A stretch of 49,043 nt of DNA from Escherichia phage PGN590: the sequence record NC_049830.1; one strand, 5' to 3'. How positions within the stretch are numbered: position 1 is the first letter of the stretch; every line of letters begins with the position of its first letter. Shown one piece after another: positions 1 through 8,180 of the stretch. A program made the position numbers and the translations under genes. Below the pieces are notes generated by a model, which had not been told where the DNA came from, made no database searches, and saw only the letters and a program-made list of their open reading frames with translations.

Positions 1-122
1 ATGCCCTTCATAACTTCATCAACATACTTCCCGCGCTTTTCAACATCCGCCTTCATTGCCTCGCCGCACTTCTTAGCCTGGCGTTTTGCAGCGTTGAATT
101 GTGCCTCGTTCATTCCAAACAT
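1..122 (-). CDS. hypothetical protein, partial (N-terminus only; runs off window start)
   Basis: ATG at 120-122 overlapping TAA of upstream ORF (TAATG); open frame to position 1; MFGMNEAQFNAAKRQAKK... Confidence 0.3.
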   Translation of the reverse strand, partial: MFGMNEAQFNAAKRQAKKCGEAMKADVEKRGKYVDEVMKG

Positions 123-250
123 TACAGACCTCTACCCTTCCACAAGTTGTACATTTCGAAATAGTGCATTGCTGTTTCAGTATCGCCGCTATCTAATGCC
201 TCCTCCTGCTTCTGTGCGCACCATTGCGACGGTTTTATGTAGTTATCCAT
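122..250 (-). CDS. small hypothetical protein (42 aa), not in ORF track
   Basis: ATG 248-250, TAA 122-124; below 60-aa cutoff; sits in minus-strand gene array. Confidence 0.25.
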   Translation of the reverse strand: MDNYIKPSQWCAQKQEEALDSGDTETAMHYFEMYNLWKGRGL

Positions 251-320
251 TGAATCACCTTACCTTAAAAATGCCTCGTCAAAATGCGTCCTGTTCGCTG
301 TATGAGGCATTCAATTTTAA

Positions 321-635
321 TTAAAAATCGTCGAGCAACTCACGAAAGTTGTTAAGAGTTGCAACTTTGGCACAATCCCACTCCGTCGATCCTGCTTCTT
401 CCCACGGAGAACCAGGCCCGTGGTTTGTCATATCATCAATCAAGCAAGAGATCTCATCAATGACAACATCTTTTAAATGCTCGCGGTGCTCAATATCTTC
501 CACAGGCTCAAAAGCCTGAATTACACCACCCAAAACGCGTTGCTGTGCTTTAGCATCGTCGAGCGTGTCACAAATTGCTCTGCGCTCCTGCTTGTTTTCG
601 TTTGTCCCGATCTGGTAGTAGTGAATGAAAATCAT
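321..635 (-). CDS. hypothetical protein
   Basis: ORF track; ATG 633-635 overlaps stop of upstream gene (ATGA). Confidence 0.5.
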   Translation of the reverse strand: MIFIHYYQIGTNENKQERRAICDTLDDAKAQQRVLGGVIQAFEPVEDIEHREHLKDVVIDEISCLIDDMTNHGPGSPWEEAGSTEWDCAKVATLNNFRELLDDF

Positions 636-940
636 TTATATTTCTCCGCTACATGCTTTGCAACTGATTGTGCGTAATTGGCAAATGCCGACTCCACTCT
701 TTCATTCTTTCTCTTCCAGTTGTGAACCTTTAAAGCCGTGTATCCATTCTCAGCAAGCCATTTTGCAGTTTCTGCCGCGTCAGTTGGACGCGGTGAGAAT
801 TTTTGCTCAAGCTGAGTAAAAAGCTCTCTTGCAACCTCATGATCAATAATCATTTCATCAGTTGATCCGCAAAGTGCGCGAGAACCTACAGCACGCAGGA
901 GTTTCTTTGCTTGTTCTTCTGAAAGGTTAATCGTGATCAT
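632..940 (-). CDS. hypothetical protein
   Basis: ORF track, start moved to ATG 938-940 (MITINLSEEQ) overlapping upstream stop (ATGA). Confidence 0.5.
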   Translation of the reverse strand: MITINLSEEQAKKLLRAVGSRALCGSTDEMIIDHEVARELFTQLEQKFSPRPTDAAETAKWLAENGYTALKVHNWKRKNERVESAFANYAQSVAKHVAEKYK

Positions 941-1149
941 TCTTCTACTACCTCGCATTCGTCATGGTTTACGCCGATGTTATCACCGATTCGAATTTCT
1001 TCCGTGTTGCGGATTGCCAACACGCAGTAAGAACCATCGCGAAAGAATCCGTCAACATCCACAATGTCACCAACTTTAAACCCGCATTGCTCAAGGGTAA
1101 TGCTTCCGTCGTTGCGGTCAATGTCAACCCTGGTGATTCGAATTTTCAT
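937..1149 (-). CDS. hypothetical protein
   Basis: ATG 1147-1149 preceded by GAGGA RBS; downstream of repeat copy at 1207. Confidence 0.5.
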   Translation of the reverse strand: MKIRITRVDIDRNDGSITLEQCGFKVGDIVDVDGFFRDGSYCVLAIRNTEEIRIGDNIGVNHDECEVVEE

Positions 1150-1206
1150 TTTGATTTCCTCTGTTTCGCTTCAATGAGGACACTTTAACAAATGCCCTCG
1201 CGGAAG

Positions 1207-1226
1207 TTTTAACAAAAAGTGCTATT
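1207..1226 (-). promoter_or_regulatory. intergenic 20-bp repeat, promoter-like
   Basis: sense AATAGCACTTTTTGTTAAAA; overlaps TAA of 1225-1512; TAAAGT about 22 nt downstream. Confidence 0.55.
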
Positions 1227-1512
1227 AGCTCATATAATAAATTTCATCGCGCACAAAATCGTCAAAATCAGATTGCGTTAATGGTCGATCCTCTAATGCT
1301 GCCTGTTCAATCATTTCCACCAGGGCGCAATCCATAGCAAGGTAATGCGCATCAAGATCATACCATGAAGCCATTTGACGCGCCCAGGAGCGGCAATTCT
1401 TGAATCCGTAGCGTCGGATACAGTTTGCCGTGTGAAATGAGTCATTCCAACCACGCTCAAGCGCTGCCTTTTCGAATGCGTTAATCAACATTTTACGATT
1501 GCTTTTAGCCAT
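1225..1512 (-). CDS. hypothetical protein
   Basis: ATG 1510-1512 with GGAGG RBS; stop overlaps repeat motif. Confidence 0.55.
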   Translation of the reverse strand: MAKSNRKMLINAFEKAALERGWNDSFHTANCIRRYGFKNCRSWARQMASWYDLDAHYLAMDCALVEMIEQAALEDRPLTQSDFDDFVRDEIYYMS

Positions 1513-1555
1513 TTGATTCCTCCTTTTAGCGCCACCGAAGCGGCGCGATTAAACA

Positions 1556-1732
1556 TTATTTCTTTCCGGTCAGAATGTAGCGCTTGCCATTTTTAAATCC
1601 ATCGCCGTAGCCGTAATATGCGCCAGCCAGGAAGATAATCATTCCCCCGAATGACTCAACAATGCCGCTATACCCATAAGCCAAATGGGAACCAACGATA
1701 AGGGCAATAAAGGTGATAATTGCTCTTTTCAT
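1556..1732 (-). CDS. small membrane protein (2 predicted TM helices)
   Basis: ATG 1730-1732 overlaps upstream stop (ATGA); hydrophobic IITFIALIVG and GMIIFLAGAYYGY. Confidence 0.45.
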   Translation of the reverse strand: MKRAIITFIALIVGSHLAYGYSGIVESFGGMIIFLAGAYYGYGDGFKNGKRYILTGKK

Positions 1733-1992
1733 TCGTGATCCCATACGTCGCATTTTTTGACAACCAGCAAACGCAGCTTGTAAGGTCGGAACTTGTGCAA
1801 CTTTTTAGCGTATTCTCGCGCCTCACTGTAACTATTGAACTCCATAGCCCAAAAGCCTAAAGCATCATCCGTCAGATATTCCCAATCCCCACTAATAACG
1901 CGGCGGCGTTGCAGACAATAAATCTTGCATTCTGTGCAAGCAACGATCCGGTATTCAGGTTTGAAGATTCGTTTTAGTGCATTAAAAACCAT
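1729..1992 (-). CDS. hypothetical protein (CxxC pair)
   Basis: ATG 1990-1992 with GAGGG RBS; VACTECKIYC. Confidence 0.45.
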   Translation of the reverse strand: MVFNALKRIFKPEYRIVACTECKIYCLQRRRVISGDWEYLTDDALGFWAMEFNSYSEAREYAKKLHKFRPYKLRLLVVKKCDVWDHE

Positions 1993-2091
1993 AGTGCCGC
2001 CCTCACTGAATAAACAACTAAGAGAATAAAGAATAACACAATCATGATTTCATGAAAATTAAATGGAGGCTTTGGATTGGTTGCGTTGTTG

Positions 2092-2496
2092 TTATTTCCC
2101 AGCATTTCGCGCAATCCCTTTGTACATTCTGTAAAAATTACTGCCAGGATTTTTGAACTTGATCGCGTTTCGAGCAAGTCGGCGCATCCGTCGCGCATCG
2201 TATCGCGCTCGCTGAAATGGCATTTTCATTGTCTTAATATGGCAGCCGCGATGATCGCTGATTCGCTTAAGCTCAATCAAAACGCCTTGAGTTGCCACTA
2301 CGTAATAATGTTCAAATCCCAAACGGCGAGTTATGATATAGCCATTCTTGATGCGTGGTCGGTTAAACTCTTTGGTCGATCCGATATAGCGATCTGAAGC
2401 CGTTACAATCTCGCCTTTACGAATACCGCATATCTCACCACATACCCAGGTTACAACAAATTTTGTGCCTACGCGGATTTTTTGAAGTTCTAACAT
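2092..2496 (-). CDS. hypothetical protein, basic C-terminus (possible nucleic-acid binding)
   Basis: start set to ATG 2494-2496 (MLELQKIR) after GAGAGGG RBS; track start lies inside promoter-like TATAAT. Confidence 0.45.
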   Translation of the reverse strand: MLELQKIRVGTKFVVTWVCGEICGIRKGEIVTASDRYIGSTKEFNRPRIKNGYIITRRLGFEHYYVVATQGVLIELKRISDHRGCHIKTMKMPFQRARYDARRMRRLARNAIKFKNPGSNFYRMYKGIARNAGK

Positions 2497-2545
2497 GTTC
2501 AAGCCCTCTCGTTTATTGGTGTTTGCATTATAGCGAGGCATTGCG

Positions 2546-2570
2546 CCCCGCTTTTAGCAATTCGTGCTAT
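2546..2570 (-). promoter_or_regulatory. divergent repeat copy (AATAGCACGAATTGCTAAAAG), promoter-like
   Basis: overlaps TAG of kinase gene; GC hairpin then TATAAT (plus-strand 2526-2531). Confidence 0.45.
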
Positions 2571-3157
2571 TTGATCTTAACGTGTTTCCACTGGACAGTT
2601 TTGATGATCTCGTCAACTGTCTTTTCTGGATCGCCATCAGTCATTGTGAAGTCGTAATGTTTTATGCGGTGATGGTATCCGCTCAGGTCAATATAGTTTC
2701 GTGAATCGCCATCAAACGTGAAACCTTCGCGGTGCAGTCTGCAAATGTGAACTTCATGGCCTGCCTTAACGAGCGGCTTGATTTCTTCAGGAAATCCGCC
2801 ATCACTAATTACAACAGCCAAATCCCTGCACATCTCGTGTACTTGCTCAACCATGCGATTTCCGAAATATTGCTCGCCAAAAGCTGGCTTCATAATTTCT
2901 TCGCTAATCCAGATCATGAACTGGCGAGGCGACTTGCCTTGCAAGATTGCTTGAGGCTTTTCTTTCTGCTCGCGGTCGTTATACAGATCAATAAACTCGT
3001 CATATCGGTAAACGCCAAGCATGGAGAATGCAATATCAAACATAGGCTGTTTAAACGACGCTTTAACGGCTGCGTAACGATGACCTGTTAAGTATGCCGC
3101 AAGCGTATCCTTGCCAACTCCTGGCGGTCCGTTAAGGATTATAATGTCTCGCTTCAT
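2567..3157 (-). CDS. P-loop nucleotide/polynucleotide kinase-like protein
   Basis: Walker A LNGPPGVGKDT near N-terminus; GGAG RBS before ATG 3155-3157. Confidence 0.6.
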   Translation of the reverse strand: MKRDIIILNGPPGVGKDTLAAYLTGHRYAAVKASFKQPMFDIAFSMLGVYRYDEFIDLYNDREQKEKPQAILQGKSPRQFMIWISEEIMKPAFGEQYFGNRMVEQVHEMCRDLAVVISDGGFPEEIKPLVKAGHEVHICRLHREGFTFDGDSRNYIDLSGYHHRIKHYDFTMTDGDPEKTVDEIIKTVQWKHVKIK

Positions 3158-3351
3158 ATTAATTTTCTCCATATTGGATTGAATGTTTACCTGGACGCTG
3201 GCGCTTCTTGCGATAGCGTTGATTCGTCTCTTGGTGCTCGTGGTAGCTGTATCGCTTCTTTTTGGATACGATTTTCTCGAAGTTTCGCATCTTCATGATC
3301 TCATGTTGTTATCTCAACATAGCGCACTGCATGAATGCGCTATAGCAAGAA

Positions 3352-3537
3352 TCACCACTTAAATCCGCTTTCATCCCGCACAATCTGGTAAAGCGCCACC
3401 CAAAACCACACAAACCAGAAAATCAGAACAAGATGCTGATCTTTATCAGTGCAATCACACTCTTTAACCAATGCGCGGAAGATGAATAATCCTGAAATAT
3501 AAAAGAAAACCACTAAAAATACAAGTAACCAAATCAT
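3352..3537 (-). CDS. small membrane protein
   Basis: AAGGAGG RBS; two hydrophobic segments (LLVFLVVFFYISGLFIF, LIFWFVWFWVALY). Confidence 0.45.
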   Translation of the reverse strand: MIWLLVFLVVFFYISGLFIFRALVKECDCTDKDQHLVLIFWFVWFWVALYQIVRDESGFKW

Positions 3538-3611
3538 TTATTGCCTCCTTCAATTACCAGCGTGTAAAGCAGAACTGGATTTTGCATGTCGCGGCGGCGC
3601 GGCTCTAGTTG

Positions 3612-3797
3612 CTAATCTAGCCATGCACATTTACCGTTCGCCACAATATAACCCACCAGGTCACTAAGTTTTGATATACCGTCTCGACTAATCACGTTGT
3701 ATGCAACGTCTTCGCCGTCAATGGAATGGATAGCAAAGAAACTTGGCGCGCCGTCAATCTTGTCTACCGCTTTGAAAAACTCCACTTTATTAGCCAT
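3612..3797 (-). CDS. hypothetical protein
   Basis: ATG 3795-3797 preceded by conserved leader CATCGACAACAAACGAGGATTAAATC. Confidence 0.5.
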   Translation of the reverse strand: MANKVEFFKAVDKIDGAPSFFAIHSIDGEDVAYNVISRDGISKLSDLVGYIVANGKCAWLD

Positions 3798-3853
3798 GAT
3801 TTAATCCTCGTTTGTTGTCGATGGGCTTACTATACCGCAAGCCCGATAATCTG

Positions 3854-3873
3854 TTTTTGCAAAAAGTGCTATT
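3854..3873 (-). promoter_or_regulatory. intergenic repeat (variant TTGCAAAAA), promoter-like
   Basis: overlaps TAG of phosphatase gene; TATAGT 22 nt downstream, then conserved leader. Confidence 0.5.
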
Positions 3874-4582
3874 CAGCGTTAACAAAATCGCCGTCACTAT
3901 GATCGAATGACCAGGTACATCCAGAATCATCATGAACTATAAAGCTCTTGTCATGATAAGAAACAACGTCATAGGCTATTCCTCTAGTAAAGCTGGCATT
4001 GACCAAGCTGTCTTTGCTGCCGACGAATCTGGCGCGCTTCGTGATCTTGATGACCTCAACGCCGTGCGATTGGATGTGACTATGTGGCTTGTCGTATTCC
4101 GTGACCTGATAGGTTGTGATTCCCAGGCTGCGGAAGTGCTTAACCACGTTAGGCGAATCATCAAAAGCGCACACAATGTTTTCCAGTCCGATAGCGCGTA
4201 AGACTTCTTCTTTGATGATTGTGTCTTTGCGGTTATCTTCCTTGCGGCGCATGATTAACGCATCGTACTTGATGCCGCTTTCGTTAAGCCATTTGCAGGT
4301 GTCCGCCATTACTTCGTCGCTACGTCCGGTCAGGATAACAATGGCAAATCCTGACATCCATAATCCGTTAACCACTGCAACCGTGCTCTTAATCGGCGAA
4401 TCTCCAACAGCCGCCTTATTGAACTCAGACCAGCTTTCTGTAAGGTGCAAATCTTCTGTCGGAAGCAGGTGCAAGCGATGCGTTCCATCGGATAAAGTGC
4501 CGTCAAGATCAACAATAACAATCGGCTTGCTGGTGGAAAAATGGTATTTGCTGCCCCAAAGTTCAAATTCGTATTTTTTCAT
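3869..4582 (-). CDS. HAD-superfamily phosphatase (polynucleotide 3'-phosphatase-like)
   Basis: DxDxT motif VIVDLDGTLSDG near N-terminus; ATG 4580-4582. Confidence 0.6.
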   Translation of the reverse strand: MKKYEFELWGSKYHFSTSKPIVIVDLDGTLSDGTHRLHLLPTEDLHLTESWSEFNKAAVGDSPIKSTVAVVNGLWMSGFAIVILTGRSDEVMADTCKWLNESGIKYDALIMRRKEDNRKDTIIKEEVLRAIGLENIVCAFDDSPNVVKHFRSLGITTYQVTEYDKPHSHIQSHGVEVIKITKRARFVGSKDSLVNASFTRGIAYDVVSYHDKSFIVHDDSGCTWSFDHSDGDFVNAE

Positions 4583-4593
4583 TATCAAACCTA

Positions 4594-4815
4594 TCAATTA
4601 AAGTGGATTTGCTTGTATTCGATTTCATCTGCCAGATCATTTAACTTATCCGCCAGCTTGCGCACCTGGTCAATGGTGAGTATTGACCTAAAATCCGGCC
4701 TGCGCCCACCCTCAAACGTGCCATCAATAAACACGCGATCTCCGAACTTATATACTTCAAGTGAATCACCATGATTATCAATAAACTTGTGCTTGACGCG
4801 CTTATTTGTTTCCAT
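4594..4815 (-). CDS. hypothetical protein
   Basis: ATG 4813-4815 with GAGGAAG RBS. Confidence 0.5.
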   Translation of the reverse strand: METNKRVKHKFIDNHGDSLEVYKFGDRVFIDGTFEGGRRPDFRSILTIDQVRKLADKLNDLADEIEYKQIHFN

Positions 4816-5032
4816 CTTTCACTTCCTCAAATTCAGCAATTACCATAGCGTGCGCCATAACCTTAGTGCCTTCGCCTCCGTTCAGGAACATGCGATGCCC
4901 TTTACTATTGCTCACGTAAAATGATCCGGTTGATGATTTCATCTTTTGCGCCGTATAGATTTCGCCAGGCTTGAACATACCAGAGCAAGCATAGTTAACG
5001 GAAACGCATTTCATCTTCTTTTTAATGTACAT
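4802..5032 (-). CDS. hypothetical protein
   Basis: start moved to ATG 5030-5032 (AAGGA RBS); track start lies inside repeat motif. Confidence 0.45.
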   Translation of the reverse strand: MYIKKKMKCVSVNYACSGMFKPGEIYTAQKMKSSTGSFYVSNSKGHRMFLNGGEGTKVMAHAMVIAEFEEVKDGNK

Positions 5033-5086
5033 CGTTTTATATCCTTCATTGAAAGTGAGGCCATTATACCTGGCCCCACATTTGAG

Positions 5087-5106
5087 TTTTAACAAAAAGT
5101 GCTATT
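5087..5106 (-). promoter_or_regulatory. intergenic 20-bp repeat, promoter-like
   Basis: canonical copy; consensus TATAAT at plus-strand 5063-5068, 21 nt downstream. Confidence 0.6.
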
Positions 5107-5330
5107 TCTTAATACATAGCGTGTGAGTGTACGCATAAAACCTGTTGTTGCTCTTGATCTGCTCTCGTGCCTCAATGCAAGATTGCTGGCTATTCATTTC
5201 GATATGGTCAACGCCGCCATCAATCATAAGAATCAGTAAAATCCAAGTAGCCATCTCTCACCTCAATAAAAGATAAACAGGTAGGCAAACAATCCGATCC
5301 ATGCGGCGACGTGCGCCGCAGTGAACAAAC

Positions 5331-6212
5331 TCAAATCTTTACCTCCCACTTAACCATCGTTCCGCGCTTGATGCTGATCTCACCTGCAACAGTCCGGTTT
5401 TTAGAGCCGCCATAGTGAAGCAGGAGGATAACAACATCATCATGAATCTCGATAGTCTTTGGTTTCGCCGTTAATTCATACCAGATGCCGTCATCAAGCT
5501 GGACTCCTTTTAGCGTAGCTGCAAGTGGCATATCTTCAATGGCGCTCTGACTTACGAGGTTTCGCGCAACAATGCCATGCCCATTGATTGTTTGACTGTG
5601 AATCTGTTCACCAATACGTCGCGCGGCGTTATCTATAGCCTGAGCAATGTGTGACTTACCGCCACCGATTGGCGCATCTCCAAACAAGTGTTTTGTAATG
5701 TCTTCCACATAGTAAATCTTATCTTTTTCATTGTGCGGATTGTATTTATTATGACCATTAACAAAGAAATCCACCTTAAGCTCTGATTTCTGACCATCGC
5801 TATAAACGCCATTGTCGCGCGATGTGTAGCGAATCGTTGAATTACCAGCGGAGCGGAAAGTGATCGGATATTTGATATTATCCACGTCTAAGCACCACAA
5901 TTTTTTGTAGTCGCATGTATTCATCTTGATCATCGGAATCTCTGCGCGTTCCGGTGAGCGCACCGGTAACACCTGGCCCCTGTATGGCTTGTAGTGGAAA
6001 CATGTATATCCTGGCATTGCATAGCCGTAGTCTTTTCGCGAGTTATAGTGCTTGTTATGCACATCAATGAAGTACTCAATCTCCATTGATGAAACACCAG
6101 GCTTTCCGTATTCGTTAAACGTAGTGCATGTATTTTCATCGGTGAACATGAAGTGTCCGACCCCCTTTGATTGGAAGGTGATCGGGAATTTGATGTTAGC
6201 AAGTTTTAACAT
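5331..6212 (-). CDS. hypothetical protein with tandem duplicated N-terminal domain
   Basis: AGGAGA RBS; NIKFPITFQSKG...FIDVHNKHYN repeated as NIKYPITFRSAGN...FVNGHNKYNP; IGGGKSH Walker-A-like segment. Confidence 0.55.
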   Translation of the reverse strand: MLKLANIKFPITFQSKGVGHFMFTDENTCTTFNEYGKPGVSSMEIEYFIDVHNKHYNSRKDYGYAMPGYTCFHYKPYRGQVLPVRSPERAEIPMIKMNTCDYKKLWCLDVDNIKYPITFRSAGNSTIRYTSRDNGVYSDGQKSELKVDFFVNGHNKYNPHNEKDKIYYVEDITKHLFGDAPIGGGKSHIAQAIDNAARRIGEQIHSQTINGHGIVARNLVSQSAIEDMPLAATLKGVQLDDGIWYELTAKPKTIEIHDDVVILLLHYGGSKNRTVAGEISIKRGTMVKWEVKI

Positions 6213-6291
6213 GGTGCTTTCTCCTGATTGGTTTTGTGGGCGACGCCGTGCCGCCCTATGTTATTTATTATGCCTGGTTATCGTTTTTTAG

Positions 6292-6311
6292 TTTTAACAA
6301 AAAGTGCTATT
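6292..6311 (-). promoter_or_regulatory. intergenic 20-bp repeat, promoter-like
   Basis: abuts TAA of 6311-6496; CATAAT about 22 nt downstream. Confidence 0.55.
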
Positions 6312-6496
6312 TAGAATTTTACCTCTTCAACAAGCTCAACCATTTTATAACCTAGCAGATAAGAGTCACCGAACAACAAGATCCCCATAAATTCATCGCG
6401 GCTTATTGACTCTTTACCAACCGTTCTAAGCTCGCCATTGTGAATCACAGTATCGCTGATATTGATTTCTGATTTATGGACTAATTTCGTTTTCAT
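6311..6496 (-). CDS. hypothetical protein
   Basis: ORF track; ATG 6494-6496. Confidence 0.45.
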   Translation of the reverse strand: MKTKLVHKSEINISDTVIHNGELRTVGKESISRDEFMGILLFGDSYLLGYKMVELVEEVKF

Positions 6497-6511
6497 TTAT
6501 TCACCCGCTAA

Positions 6512-6697
6512 TTAAAAGAAAGCCACATAGTTTGCAATGCCTTTGGCGTCATCGTTTGGCATTGCTTTTACAGCCAGGTCATAACCTGCATCTACCTTCT
6601 GTTTTGCTGTTTCTTCGTTGTAGCCCCAGATAATCAGAATTTTAACTACGTTTTCTTTGTTCAGTACTTTAAGGTCTTTGGTGATGCGACGTGCCAT
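6512..6697 (-). CDS. hypothetical protein
   Basis: ATG 6695-6697 with GAGGAAA RBS. Confidence 0.5.
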   Translation of the reverse strand: MARRITKDLKVLNKENVVKILIIWGYNEETAKQKVDAGYDLAVKAMPNDDAKGIANYVAFF

Positions 6698-6754
6698 TTT
6701 GTTTTCCTCAATCTCGTTTCGATGAGGCTATTATGCCAGGCTTTGCGCCTGGCG

Positions 6755-6774
6755 TTTTAACAAAAAGTGCTATT
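6755..6774 (-). promoter_or_regulatory. intergenic 20-bp repeat, promoter-like
   Basis: overlaps TAG of lipoprotein gene; GC hairpin in spacer; CATAAT downstream. Confidence 0.55.
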
Positions 6775-7030
6775 TAATATCTGTTGTGACTTGTTGGTGC
6801 ATTACGTTTTTGCCGCTGTTGTATGTGCTATCCGTTGCGCCATTACAATTGGTGTAATAGATTGCTCGACCGTTGTCATAGAATCGGTACGCAGTGCATC
6901 CATCCACAGTAAACAGGCGACCGACTTTAAAATCTGACTCCACTCCTACGACAACCGTTGATTCCGATGCCTTCTCGCATCCGGTCAGGGTAGCAATTGC
7001 AATCAAAACTCCAATTAATGCCTTACTCAT
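6770..7030 (-). CDS. lipoprotein
   Basis: signal peptide plus lipobox LIAIATLTGC; four further Cys in mature part. Confidence 0.55.
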   Translation of the reverse strand: MSKALIGVLIAIATLTGCEKASESTVVVGVESDFKVGRLFTVDGCTAYRFYDNGRAIYYTNCNGATDSTYNSGKNVMHQQVTTDIK

Positions 7031-7508
7031 CCTCTTTCCCTCCAGCGAGTTTACGAATCATGTCCTGGTAGCGCCCTATAGCCTCACACGCTCCAGCAAG
7101 TTTGTCGCCTTCCATGTCTGTGATATTTGGCATTACGTTTACCAGGTGATTAAGAATTTTGCTTACCGCCTTCTCTGCGCGCTTTTCTGCGATCTCGTCG
7201 ATTTCTTCACCAGTCAAAACGCGAGGCTTGCTTTTGGCTTCGGTGAGCGTAAACACAAAGCCATCACCCTCATCAGTCACCTTTCGCTTAATGCTGATCA
7301 CTCCTTTTTGCTTTACTTCTGGCACACGGTTGACAACCTGGCGCATGTACGATGCCGTAATTGCTTCGCCGTTCTCCACATTAGCGCACAAAAAAAGTGC
7401 TGGCATGAATACATTATTACGCTCACCACTACCAATTGCCGCGCCCAAGTCGCGAAGCATATCGCAAAACTCACTACGCGACATGGTGATAATATTTTCT
7501 TCGCTCAT
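7023..7508 (-). CDS. hypothetical protein
   Basis: ORF track; first gene transcribed leftwards from control region. Confidence 0.5.
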   Translation of the reverse strand: MSEENIITMSRSEFCDMLRDLGAAIGSGERNNVFMPALFLCANVENGEAITASYMRQVVNRVPEVKQKGVISIKRKVTDEGDGFVFTLTEAKSKPRVLTGEEIDEIAEKRAEKAVSKILNHLVNVMPNITDMEGDKLAGACEAIGRYQDMIRKLAGGKEDE

Positions 7509-7829
7509 AGCATCTACTCCTTTTGTTGCGTTTAAACTGGATGCATTATTGCCTTGCCTCTCCTACATGTCAATATATTTTGTGTTTTAACAACAATTTT
7601 TGGCATGTGGCGCGTTTAAAGATAACAAAATGCTTCAGTTAAGTCATTGGTTTTTATGTTAAAAATGACCCTGTTGACTTGGTTGACGGAGGATTGCTTC
7701 ATACCCATATATATACATACAAAAATCACCACGCATCATCATTGATTAAAAAATATACAATCACACATACATATCACCACAAACAATACCAATCCACCAC
7801 ATACCCATAGAACAAGCACAACAGTAAAT

Positions 7830-7870
7830 AACAAATATAAATACATATATAACTAACTTATTGATTTTAT
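7830..7870. repeat. conserved block shared by both strand-switch control regions (copy 1)
   Basis: AACAAATATAAATACATATATAACTAACTTATTGATTTTAT; about 33/40 identical to 28024-28063; flanked by CA-rich tracts. Confidence 0.6.
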
Positions 7871-7922
7871 GGGTATATATATAAATTTTATTTTGTTCTT
7901 TTTGTTGATGAACGCCAATTCT

Positions 7923-7957
7923 GTTATCTCAAAGTGCGGAGGCTTATTTGAGATAAC
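7923..7957. repeat. perfect 11-bp inverted repeat with 13-nt loop
   Basis: GTTATCTCAAA ... TTTGAGATAAC in non-coding control region. Confidence 0.6.
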
Positions 7958-8107
7958 GCGGGGAACAGAAATAACAGTTGTGCGCGCCAGGATTGCAGGA
8001 AAGGATGCAAGAGGGCCACATTTCTCTATCCCCTCCACACAAAAAGTTAATCACTTGATTAAAATTGATCAAACTCAAAGTCTCACAATCCAGGTGATCG
8101 CGAATGA

Positions 8108-8150
8108 TTTATTCCTGTTATTCCTGATTAATGGAATAGATGGAATAATG
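8108..8150. promoter_or_regulatory. dyad-symmetric operator-like element
   Basis: TTATTCCTG TTATTCCTG attaat GGAATAGAT GGAATAATG; two direct 9-mers mirrored around ATTAAT, 12 bp upstream of promoter-like repeat. Confidence 0.5.
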
Positions 8151-8161
8151 ACCAGTCAGCA

Positions 8162-8180
8162 AATAGCACTTTTTGTTAAA
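8162..8180 (+). promoter_or_regulatory. intergenic repeat, promoter-like (first rightward promoter)
   Basis: TACATT 22 nt after TTGTTA; drives 8244 gene; dyad element just upstream. Confidence 0.55.

What the first reader, a model, noticed from the sequence alone, without database searches (positions are those of the whole stretch)
5331..6212. 293-aa protein with a tandem duplicated domain and a Walker-A-like segment
Residues around NIKFPITFQSKG...EIEYFIDVHNKHYN are repeated about 100 residues later as NIKYPITFRSAGN...KVDFFVNGHNKYNP, a clear internal duplication. The C-terminal third contains GDAPIGGGKSHIAQ, reminiscent of a P-loop. No family assignment is possible by eye. It is the largest gene in the leftward small-gene block and has its own promoter-like repeat (6292).
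Basis: seen in the sequence. Interest (0 to 1): 0.45.

Follow-up and report, generated by a model that had tools for sequence, protein, structure and literature searches.

The report
Modular T1-like phage accessory protein
This is a real but uncharacterised accessory protein of T1-like coliphages, built from two copies of a small domain with no known structural relative plus an SH3-like barrel; the apparent ATP-binding motif is a chance resemblance in a flexible linker.

The parts
6286..6312 (-). Upstream half of the reiterated promoter-like motif (AATAGCACTTTTTGTTAAAAC; -35-like TTAAAA at 6292-6297)
   Evidence: Direct-repeat family D1/D3. About 17 oriented copies in the window, each in front of a gene. 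A copy precedes the ortholog in every related locus, including T1 and distant relatives.
6267..6272 (-). -10-like hexamer CATAAT, 19 nt after TTAAAA
   Evidence: The same geometry (N18-19, then [TC]A[TC]AAT) is seen in the other copies of the motif. This is a consensus match only; the transcription start has not been mapped.
6238..6256 (-). 5'-UTR GC hairpin GGGCGGC-ACGGC-GUCGCCC (7 bp stem, 5-nt loop)
   Evidence: RNA fold -13.9 kcal/mol, z -2.0. Sequence conserved in all six long-form loci. Role unknown.
6221..6225 (-). Shine-Dalgarno AGGAG, 8 nt before the ATG
   Evidence: Read directly from the sequence.
5331..6212 (-). CDS of gp08, 293 aa, 33 kDa, pI 8.7, no TM segment or signal peptide
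   Evidence: 100% identical to PGN590 H1N96_gp08; phrog_7116, E 1.7e-75; dN/dS 0.21; physicochemical properties.
5964..6212 (-). N-module copy 1 (aa 1-83), the more divergent copy, with a C-terminal extension PGYTCFHYKPYRGQVL
   Evidence: AF2 pLDDT 78-92. hhalign to copy 2 and to single-copy forms. The loop at aa 20-45 is the most variable part (32-81% identity, dN/dS 0.35).
5895..5963 (-). Linker 1 (aa 84-106), predicted disordered
   Evidence: pLDDT <50 for residues 84-103. Carries an insertion allele in L006.
5679..5894 (-). N-module copy 2 (aa 107-178), the copy closest to the single module of T1-type orthologs and the best-conserved segment
5556..5678 (-). Linker 2 (aa 179-219): Gly-rich turn plus a predicted helix at 188-206. 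Exists as two dissimilar alleles among relatives.
   Evidence: pLDDT 29-39. Alleles YFAQAIDNAARRIG... and SIQKIIGEEIHKAA.... 22-90% identity to relatives. Absent in T1-type proteins.
5652..5675 (-). APIGGGKS (aa 180-187), the 'Walker-A-like' string
   Evidence: GGGK[ST] is present in 112/123 long forms and 0/85 short forms. No P-loop fold or profile match.
5334..5555 (-). C-terminal domain (aa 220-293), an all-beta SH3-like barrel with conserved IExMPxGA, IE(V/I)HDD and E.(N/S)IKRGT motifs
5303..5319 (-). GC hairpin GCGGCG-CACGU-CGCCGC, 11 nt after the stop codon
   Evidence: -18.3 kcal/mol, z -1.3, not significant on its own. Conserved in L009 and L010, which also keep the downstream small ORF.
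5102..5254 (-). 50-aa downstream ORF (phrog_5579) with no promoter motif of its own; probably co-transcribed with gp08
   Evidence: Adjacent to the ortholog in most T1-type loci, where the stop and start overlap as TAATG, and in L009/L010. Absent in L005, L006 and L008, where the next promoter motif overlaps the stop codon.

Best explanation
gp08 is a soluble, non-enzymatic, beads-on-a-string accessory protein specific to T1-like (Drexlerviridae) phages. It is transcribed from its own copy of the phage's reiterated sigma-70-like promoter.

Shown here: it consists of two paralogous copies of a ~70-aa alpha/beta module that has no known structural relative, then flexible linkers, then a C-terminal SH3-like beta-barrel. 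The module copy number is 1, 2 or 3 in different phages. Each module also occurs fused to other phage-only domains. The gene is under purifying selection but is a mosaic of independently exchanged segments.

Inferred: the conserved C-terminal barrel docks onto a conserved partner (a host or phage macromolecule) or mediates self-association. The N-modules bind a second, more variable ligand, with copy number setting valency. The protein would act in host takeover or counter-defence in Escherichia, Shigella, Salmonella and Citrobacter hosts, and would be dispensable on laboratory strains. The GGGKS string is a glycine hinge in the linker, not a nucleotide-binding loop.
For: Architecture: three independently folded domains joined by low-confidence linkers, pTM 0.34. 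The N-module alone gives pLDDT 94.

No enzyme signature: no hits in Pfam, PADLOC or PDB sequence profiles and nothing significant in NCBIfam. The only invariant N-module residues are L, P, H and N.

Modularity: among 276 relatives there are 107 with one N-module plus the C-domain, 124 with two, 1 with three, 26 with the C-domain only, and 15 with one N-module and no C-domain (alternative C-termini or fragments). All fusion partners belong to PHROGs of unknown function. The three-copy form sits in the syntenic slot.

Accessory and host-linked: only 60 clusters at 50% identity exist among 1.84e9 representatives, and every context examined is a ~50-kb T1-like genome in the same small-gene block. 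tblastn hits are in Escherichia, Shigella, Salmonella and Citrobacter phages, with no Klebsiella phages listed, although 255 Klebsiella phage records match the surrounding 25 kb. Phage haarsle carries a TGA at codon 52 of copy 1 and is still a viable isolate.

Mosaic evolution: the gene is 69-87% identical where its neighbours are mostly 90-98%. Per-segment identity varies independently: N1 loop 32-81%, linker 2 22-90%, C-domain 50-91%, N2 83-97%. dN/dS is 0.13-0.35.

Own promoter: conserved in all loci.
Against: There is no direct evidence for any ligand, partner or phenotype, and the literature searches found nothing on this gene. 'Non-enzymatic' is an argument from absence. The C-domain has a conserved charged cluster (E226, E255, H257, D258, D259, E278, K282, R283) that could be a metal or active site. 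PxGGGK[ST] is kept in 112/123 long forms across two otherwise dissimilar linker alleles, which suggests it does something more specific than act as a hinge. No clear positive selection was detected, which an arms-race protein might be expected to show. Expression timing is unknown. The structures are predictions.
Confidence: 0.4

Rival explanations
1. P-loop NTPase: the GDAPIGGGKS segment is a Walker A loop and the C-terminal third is a small nucleotide-binding or hydrolysing domain.
For: A180-S187 fits [AG]x4GK[ST], and a predicted helix starts right after K-S, as in P-loops. GGGK[ST] is conserved in 112/123 long forms. There is a 12-bit NCBIfam match to a shikimate-kinase model over residues 180-253.
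Against: The motif is absent from 85/85 one-copy orthologs, which keep the rest of the protein. 62 of the 112 long forms that keep GGGK[ST] have T or E at the first position, which breaks the pattern. The region has pLDDT ~30 and is preceded by a helix, not a beta-strand. Only ~110 residues follow, and they form an all-beta barrel with no hhhhD/E Walker B. There is no P-loop hit in Pfam at E<=10. The NCBIfam score is 12 against a cut-off of 565.
Confidence: 0.02
2. RNA- or ribosome-directed modulator: the C-terminal barrel is a KOW/EF-P-like or Sm-like nucleic-acid-binding domain that brings the protein to the ribosome or to RNA, to redirect translation or RNA turnover early in infection.
Confidence: 0.12
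3. Small metal-dependent enzyme or metal-binding protein: the conserved E/E/H-D-D/E cluster of the C-domain forms a catalytic or metal site, and the N-modules are regulatory or targeting domains.
Against: All these hits are below significance. H257 and D258/D259 are replaced in several members (DSE, DGE, SDD, GRG, NGN). Catalytic SH3-like barrels are rare (general knowledge).
Confidence: 0.12
4. Polymorphic early-protein locus: the N-module is a conserved 'handle' for targeting, regulation or oligomerisation, and the functional effector is whatever C-terminal domain follows it. The SH3-like barrel would be just one of several interchangeable effectors.
For: The N-module always starts the protein with a near-identical MLKLxxI(K/R)(F/Y)PITF. 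It is fused to at least four unrelated C-terminal regions (P0253; P0257; P0271; the P0262/68/70/74 group). P0253 occupies the same slot, directly upstream of pnk. The promoter is conserved.
Against: The C-domain also occurs without the N-module, either alone or behind other N-terminal regions, so neither module is an obligate handle. No effector activity is known for any of the partners.
Confidence: 0.2
5. Virion, lysis or envelope-associated accessory protein, for example analogous to the lysis-cassette SH3 protein of Drexlerviridae.
For: It has an SH3-like fold. Another stand-alone SH3 protein (DUF7244) is proposed to assist lysis in T1-like phages (PMC13164509). The neighbouring small ORFs include a lipoprotein-like one and a hydrophobic one.
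Against: There is no signal peptide or TM segment (max 19-residue Kyte-Doolittle mean 0.76). It does not match DUF7244 or any SH3 Pfam family. It lies upstream of pnk in the small-gene block, not between the exonuclease and the holin.
Confidence: 0.04

Closest known systems
PHROG 7116 (phage protein family of unknown function; GenBank 'hypothetical protein' in PGN590 gp08, Bas07 bas07_0071, T1 AZS32503)
   Same: Direct member: E 1.7e-75 over residues 107-292, and 100% identical to the deposited PGN590 gp08.
   Different: The PHROG profile (173 positions) describes the one-copy form only. The extra N-terminal copy, the 1-3 copy-number series and the domain shuffling are not captured by it. None of the literature searches run here found a description of the gene or of these features.
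SH3-like small beta-barrels of translation and RNA proteins (EF-P/eIF5A domain I, uL2 C-terminal domain, Pelota N-domain, Sm/Lsm)
   Different: Sequence identity is only 2-13%. There are no profile matches. The conserved motifs (IExMPxGA, IEVHDD, IKRGT) are unrelated to the KOW or Sm motifs. No function can be transferred.
P-loop NTPases (Walker A GxxxxGK[ST])
   Same: An eight-residue string, APIGGGKS, fits the PROSITE-type pattern.
   Different: There is no alpha/beta core, no Walker B, no conservation in orthologs and no profile match. It is not a member and does not work like one.
DUF7244 stand-alone SH3 protein next to the Drexlerviridae lysis cassette (PMC13164509)
   Same: Same phage family, small SH3-type barrel, accessory ('shell') distribution.
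   Different: It is a different gene at a different locus (between the exonuclease and the holin). gp08 has no Pfam hit and carries extra N-modules.
Polymorphic or modular effector proteins (conserved N-terminal domain with swappable C-terminal domains, as in bacterial polymorphic toxins). This is an analogy from general knowledge.
   Same: A conserved N-terminal module is joined to several unrelated C-terminal regions at one syntenic slot.
   Different: No secretion or delivery role is apparent, no toxin or immunity pair is present, and the C-domain is itself mobile and more conserved than the N-module.

Membership tests
P-loop NTPase | Walker A string [AG]xxxxGK[ST] in this protein | tested here: met
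   APIGGGKS at aa 180-187.
P-loop NTPase | Walker A conserved across orthologs | tested here: not met
   Only 56 of the first 221 family proteins fit the pattern. GGGK[ST] is absent in 85/85 short forms, and T or E replaces A/G in 62 of the long forms.
P-loop NTPase | Strand-loop-helix embedded in a three-layer alpha/beta core with a Walker B (hhhhD/E) strand | tested here: not met
   In the AF2 model the segment lies in a pLDDT ~30 linker, preceded by a helix and followed by one helix and then an all-beta barrel. No hhhhD/E strand is present. This is a prediction, not a solved structure.
P-loop NTPase | Profile match to any P-loop family | tested here: not met
   Pfam gives 0 hits at E<=10. 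The NCBIfam best hit is 12.1 bits against a cut-off of 565. The PDB profile search gives nothing relevant.
P-loop NTPase | Nucleotide binding or hydrolysis | not testable with these tools
   Requires a biochemical assay.
PHROG 7116 | Significant HMM match | tested here: met
   E 1.7e-75, 253.8 bits, residues 107-292 against profile positions 1-173.
SH3-like small beta-barrel fold (C-domain) | Structural superposition on SH3-like, KOW or Sm barrels | tested here: met
SH3-like small beta-barrel fold (C-domain) | Sequence-profile membership in a curated SH3, KOW, Sm or EF-P family | tested here: not met
   No such Pfam hit for 33 diverse C-domains at E<=1. The PDB profile search gave none.
Internally duplicated (tandem-domain) protein | Statistically supported self-similarity and the same predicted fold in both copies | tested here: met
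   z = 12. hhalign 96%, E 4.9e-9. Same secondary-structure order in both copies.
DUF7244 lysis-associated SH3 protein of Drexlerviridae | Pfam DUF7244 match and a position between the exonuclease and the holin | tested here: not met
   No Pfam hit. The gene lies upstream of pnk among small genes of unknown function. The family definition is from PMC13164509.
Known anti-phage-defence proteins (PADLOC models) | Profile match | tested here: not met
   PADLOC gives 0 hits at E<=1. No anti-defence library was available to test.

The most novel reading that the evidence does not exclude
The ~70-aa 'MLKL-IKFPITF...HN' module is a new protein fold. Drexlerviridae would use it as a shared N-terminal handle in a polymorphic, promoter-equipped early locus. 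C-terminal domains would be exchanged by recombination, and the handle amplified in tandem (1 to 3 copies) to tune avidity for a host target such as a defence or takeover hub. This would be a phage counterpart of polymorphic effector systems.
Probability: 0.15. Interest if true: 0.6.

Novelty: new member of a known kind. Interest (0 to 1): 0.3.

Why it matters
About half of the genes in T1-like phage genomes have no known function, and these phages are widely used in defence-system research (the BASEL and SECphi collections). This analysis turns one of the larger 'hypothetical proteins' into a defined three-domain architecture. It removes a misleading ATPase lead. It identifies two mobile, phage-specific domains, one of them with no structural neighbour. 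It also shows copy-number variation and intragenic mosaicism, which mark the gene as a reasonable candidate for host-interaction or counter-defence screens. If a partner is found, the natural 1-, 2- and 3-copy series would be a ready-made test of valency effects.

Tried and rejected
- **Family and sequence-structure searches.** Pfam at E<=10, PADLOC, NCBIfam and PDB sequence profiles for the whole protein and the C-domain gave nothing. The only PDB 'hits' were cytochrome c3 (E 0.19) and Nova-1 (E 0.24), judged to be chance matches.
- **Foldseek against the PDB with the full model.** Best E was 0.45.
- **Member-by-member Pfam scans of both modules.** Only sub-threshold scattered hits appeared: Rv3651-like_C, CooT, AMG1_III.
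- **Fusion partners as a functional clue.** All are unknown PHROGs with no Pfam match. My by-eye 'MazG-like' reading of the P0257 tail was not supported by PDB or Pfam searches. P0253 likewise gave nothing.
- **Literature.** There is no paper on phrog_7116, and PGN590 is only mentioned in passing in other papers. SECphi27 and Drexlerviridae triggers of RAZR (Gp77 recombinase, portal), Mokosh (a 128-aa protein) and CapRel (Gp54) are other genes. The daunorubicin paper and the KanT1 paper do not address this gene. No T1-like transcriptome was found.
- **Positive selection.** Not detected at domain resolution; the maximum pairwise dN/dS of 1.18 was confined to the N1 loop.
- **Flanking GC hairpins as a repeat family.** There is only one match in the window, and the fold z-scores are -2.0 and -1.3.
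- **Zn-site idea.** T1's Cys/His-rich module suggested a metal site, but the cysteines are not conserved; copy 2 of PGN590 has none.
- **C-domain as a third diverged copy of the N-module.** Rejected: hhalign gives 0.2%.

Full report
**Identity of the window and the ORF.**
The 49,043-bp window is Escherichia phage PGN590 (Drexlerviridae; Tempevirinae; Hanrivervirus). The protein encoded at 5331-6212 on the minus strand is 100% identical to its deposited gp08, a 'hypothetical protein'. It is the largest ORF of the leftward block of small genes at 1-7600. That block runs from a divergent promoter region at about 7600-8160 through DUF7174, a DUF4884-like lipoprotein, DUF7421, gp08, a HAD-type polynucleotide kinase/phosphatase and a dNMP kinase, toward the terminase genes.

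**The duplication is real.**
- Residues ~2-70 align with ~107-173 with a local BLOSUM62 score of 84, against 27.7 +/- 4.7 (max 59) for 1000 shuffles, giving z = 12.
- With family alignments, hhalign gives 96% probability (E 4.9e-9) for copy 1 versus copy 2.
- Each copy against the single module of one-copy orthologs gives over 99% (E ~1e-20).
- The C-terminal domain is unrelated to the module (0.2%).
- AlphaFold2 with an 85-sequence alignment gives both copies the same order of four strands, a helix and a strand (pLDDT 78-92). The copies are separated by low-confidence linkers at residues 84-103 and 179-218, with pTM 0.34, so the domains behave as beads on a string.
- Modelled alone with a 37-sequence alignment, the module reaches pLDDT 94 and pTM 0.83.

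**The folds.**

**The Walker-A idea fails.**
- APIGGGKS (aa 180-187) does fit [AG]x4GK[ST].
- It lies in the worst-predicted stretch of the model (pLDDT ~30). It is preceded by a short helix rather than a strand, and followed by one helix and then the beta-barrel, with no room for an NTPase core and no Walker B.
- The whole linker, motif included, is missing from T1-type orthologs. GGGK[ST] occurs in 0 of 85 short forms, and 62 of the 112 long forms that keep it have T or E in the first position.
- Pfam finds no P-loop family at E<=10. NCBIfam gives only a 12-bit match to a shikimate-kinase model whose cut-off is 565.
- One observation remains unexplained. PxGGGK[ST] is retained in 112 of 123 long forms across two otherwise dissimilar linker alleles, so the turn is probably constrained for some reason other than nucleotide binding.

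**Family anatomy.**
- The protein belongs to PHROG 7116, a family of unknown function.
- A word-indexed search returned 336 relatives. An exhaustive HMM search of 1.84 billion cluster representatives found only 60 clusters at 50% identity.
- HMM-based domain counting over the 276 collected proteins gives these architectures:

| Architecture | Proteins | Notes |
|---|---|---|
| One N-module + C-domain | 107 | T1 type, 161-168 aa |
| Two N-modules + C-domain | 124 | PGN590 type, ~293-297 aa |
| Three N-modules + C-domain | 1 | P0057, 374 aa |
| C-domain only | 26 | includes genuine 66-90 aa stand-alone proteins |
| One N-module, no C-domain | 15 | other C-terminal regions or fragments |

- The three-copy protein lies in the syntenic slot, and its copies are well diverged from each other, so it is not an assembly artefact.
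- Copy 2 of PGN590 is closest to the single module of the P0167/P0209-type one-copy orthologs. T1's own module (P0121) is about equally distant from both copies. Copy 1 is the more divergent addition.
- Distant lineages (P0231, P0235, P0245) also have two modules.
- The alternative fusion partners of either module all belong to other PHROGs of unknown function and have no Pfam or PDB matches.

**Genomic setting.**
- Every relative whose context was examined lies on a ~50-kb contig with T1-like organisation, in the same small-gene block upstream of pnk and the terminase genes.
- tblastn finds the gene in 220 phage records from Escherichia, Shigella, Salmonella and Citrobacter phages, plus a few 'Campylobacter' and Vibrio records.
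- Klebsiella phages are not among the organisms listed, although 255 Klebsiella phage records match the surrounding 25 kb at the DNA level. The gene is therefore an accessory gene linked to certain hosts.

**Its own promoter.**
- About 17 oriented copies occur in the window, each in front of a gene.
- A copy precedes the ortholog in all loci examined, including T1 and the most distant relatives.
- A 7-bp GC hairpin in the 5' UTR is conserved among the long forms.
- Downstream there are two arrangements. In some phages the next promoter copy overlaps the stop codon. In PGN590, L009 and L010, a hairpin and a 50-aa ORF (phrog_5579) follow with no promoter of their own. In T1-type phages that ORF overlaps the stop as TAATG. 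gp08 and the small ORF therefore form an optional two-gene unit.

**Evolution.**
- Pairwise Nei-Gojobori dN/dS among six long forms is 0.21 overall and 0.13-0.35 per segment, so every part is under purifying selection and the ORF is a genuine gene.
- In close relatives the protein is only 69-87% identical where its neighbours are mostly 90-98%.
- The deficit is segmental and independent. Identity to PGN590 ranges over 32-81% in the copy-1 loop (aa 20-45), 34-87% in linker 1, 22-90% in linker 2 and 50-91% in the C-domain, against 83-97% in copy 2. This is intragenic mosaicism by cassette exchange.
- Phage haarsle has a TGA at codon 52 of copy 1, and its record annotates only the N2+C part. This suggests copy 1 is dispensable on K-12, unless it is a sequencing error.

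**Interpretation.**
The architecture, the duplication, the family limits, the promoter association and the mosaic evolution are shown. The function is inferred. The protein is soluble (no TM segment, pI 8.7), has no enzyme signature, and is made of small independently folding domains that are shuffled and amplified. I therefore think it most likely acts as a non-enzymatic, multivalent adaptor or binding protein in host takeover or counter-defence. The conserved SH3-like barrel would dock onto a conserved partner or self-associate, and the N-modules would bind a more variable ligand (confidence about 0.4).

The rivals are:
- a metal or catalytic site formed by the conserved E/H/D cluster of the C-domain (0.12);
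- a polymorphic-locus reading in which the N-module is a handle for swappable C-terminal effectors (0.2);
- an envelope or lysis role (0.04);
- the P-loop NTPase reading (0.02).

No publication on this gene was found. The Drexlerviridae proteins known to trigger RAZR, Mokosh or CapRel are different genes, as is the lysis-associated DUF7244 SH3 protein.

**Verdict.**
The object is a new, better-defined member of a familiar kind, a shuffled phage accessory protein of unknown function. Its modest points of novelty are a small domain without structural relatives and a natural 1-, 2- and 3-copy series. Interest is 0.3.

Noticed in passing
window, minus strand at 1223, 3870, 5103, 6308, 6771, 17393, 18413, 20937; plus strand at 8165, 9040, 9546, 11597, 12273, 28176, 38876, 42635: A reiterated promoter-like motif, AATAGCAC(T/G)(T/A)(T/A)TTG(T/C)TAAAA-N18/19-[TC]A[TC]AAT, precedes genes all over the genome (about 17 copies), and the same motif is present in T1. 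The conserved AATAGCAC part upstream of the -35-like hexamer, and the GC palindromes often found inside the spacer (for example GCCAGGCGCAAAGCCTGGC in the 6771 copy), suggest a regulator site or an unusual promoter architecture.
   Followed up: partly
window 6770-7030 (-): An 86-aa ORF with a lipoprotein signal peptide and lipobox (…IATLTGC) and a weak DUF4884 match. It may be a membrane-anchored exclusion or envelope factor in the small-gene block.
   Followed up: no
window 5102-5254 (-); L001 3389-3538: A 50-aa ORF (phrog_5579) with a short hydrophobic N-terminus follows gp08 without its own promoter, and in T1-type phages it overlaps the gp08 stop codon (TAATG). It is missing from some close relatives (L005, L006, L008).
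   Followed up: partly
L007 1758-2642 (Escherichia phage haarsle): The gp08 ortholog has an in-frame TGA at codon 52 (a Cys codon in relatives), inside N-module copy 1. GenBank annotates only the 196-aa N2+C part. This is either a natural truncation or a sequencing error.
   Followed up: partly
P0223 (375 aa, from the representative library): A head-to-tail doubled, frameshifted version of the N2-linker region. It is most likely an assembly wrap-around artefact of a circularly permuted genome, not a real architecture.
   Followed up: no
GenBank MG065685, MG065680, MG065636 ('Campylobacter phage' A112a, A113, A16a): Records labelled as Campylobacter jejuni phages carry T1-like genomes whose gp08 orthologs are ~70% identical to PGN590's. 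They look like coliphage sequences that were mislabelled or came from contamination.
   Followed up: no
window 5652-5675 (-) and orthologs: PxGGGK[ST] is kept in 112/123 two-copy forms across two otherwise dissimilar linker alleles, although it is not a P-loop. The reason for this constraint is unexplained.
   Followed up: partly
window 3869-4597 (-): The polynucleotide kinase/phosphatase ORF has a HAD_PNKP domain at aa 26-167 only. Its ~55-aa C-terminal tail weakly matches a PHROG annotated 'virion structural protein' (E 4e-4). The TTG start listed by the ORF finder is probably upstream of the true start.
   Followed up: no
L003 146-346: A Gp54-family gene (PF25180; from memory, the family of the second CapRel trigger) lies in the divergently transcribed small-gene block upstream of the block that carries the gp08-slot gene in a related T1-like phage. 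This shows that such blocks do contain defence-sensed proteins.
   Followed up: no
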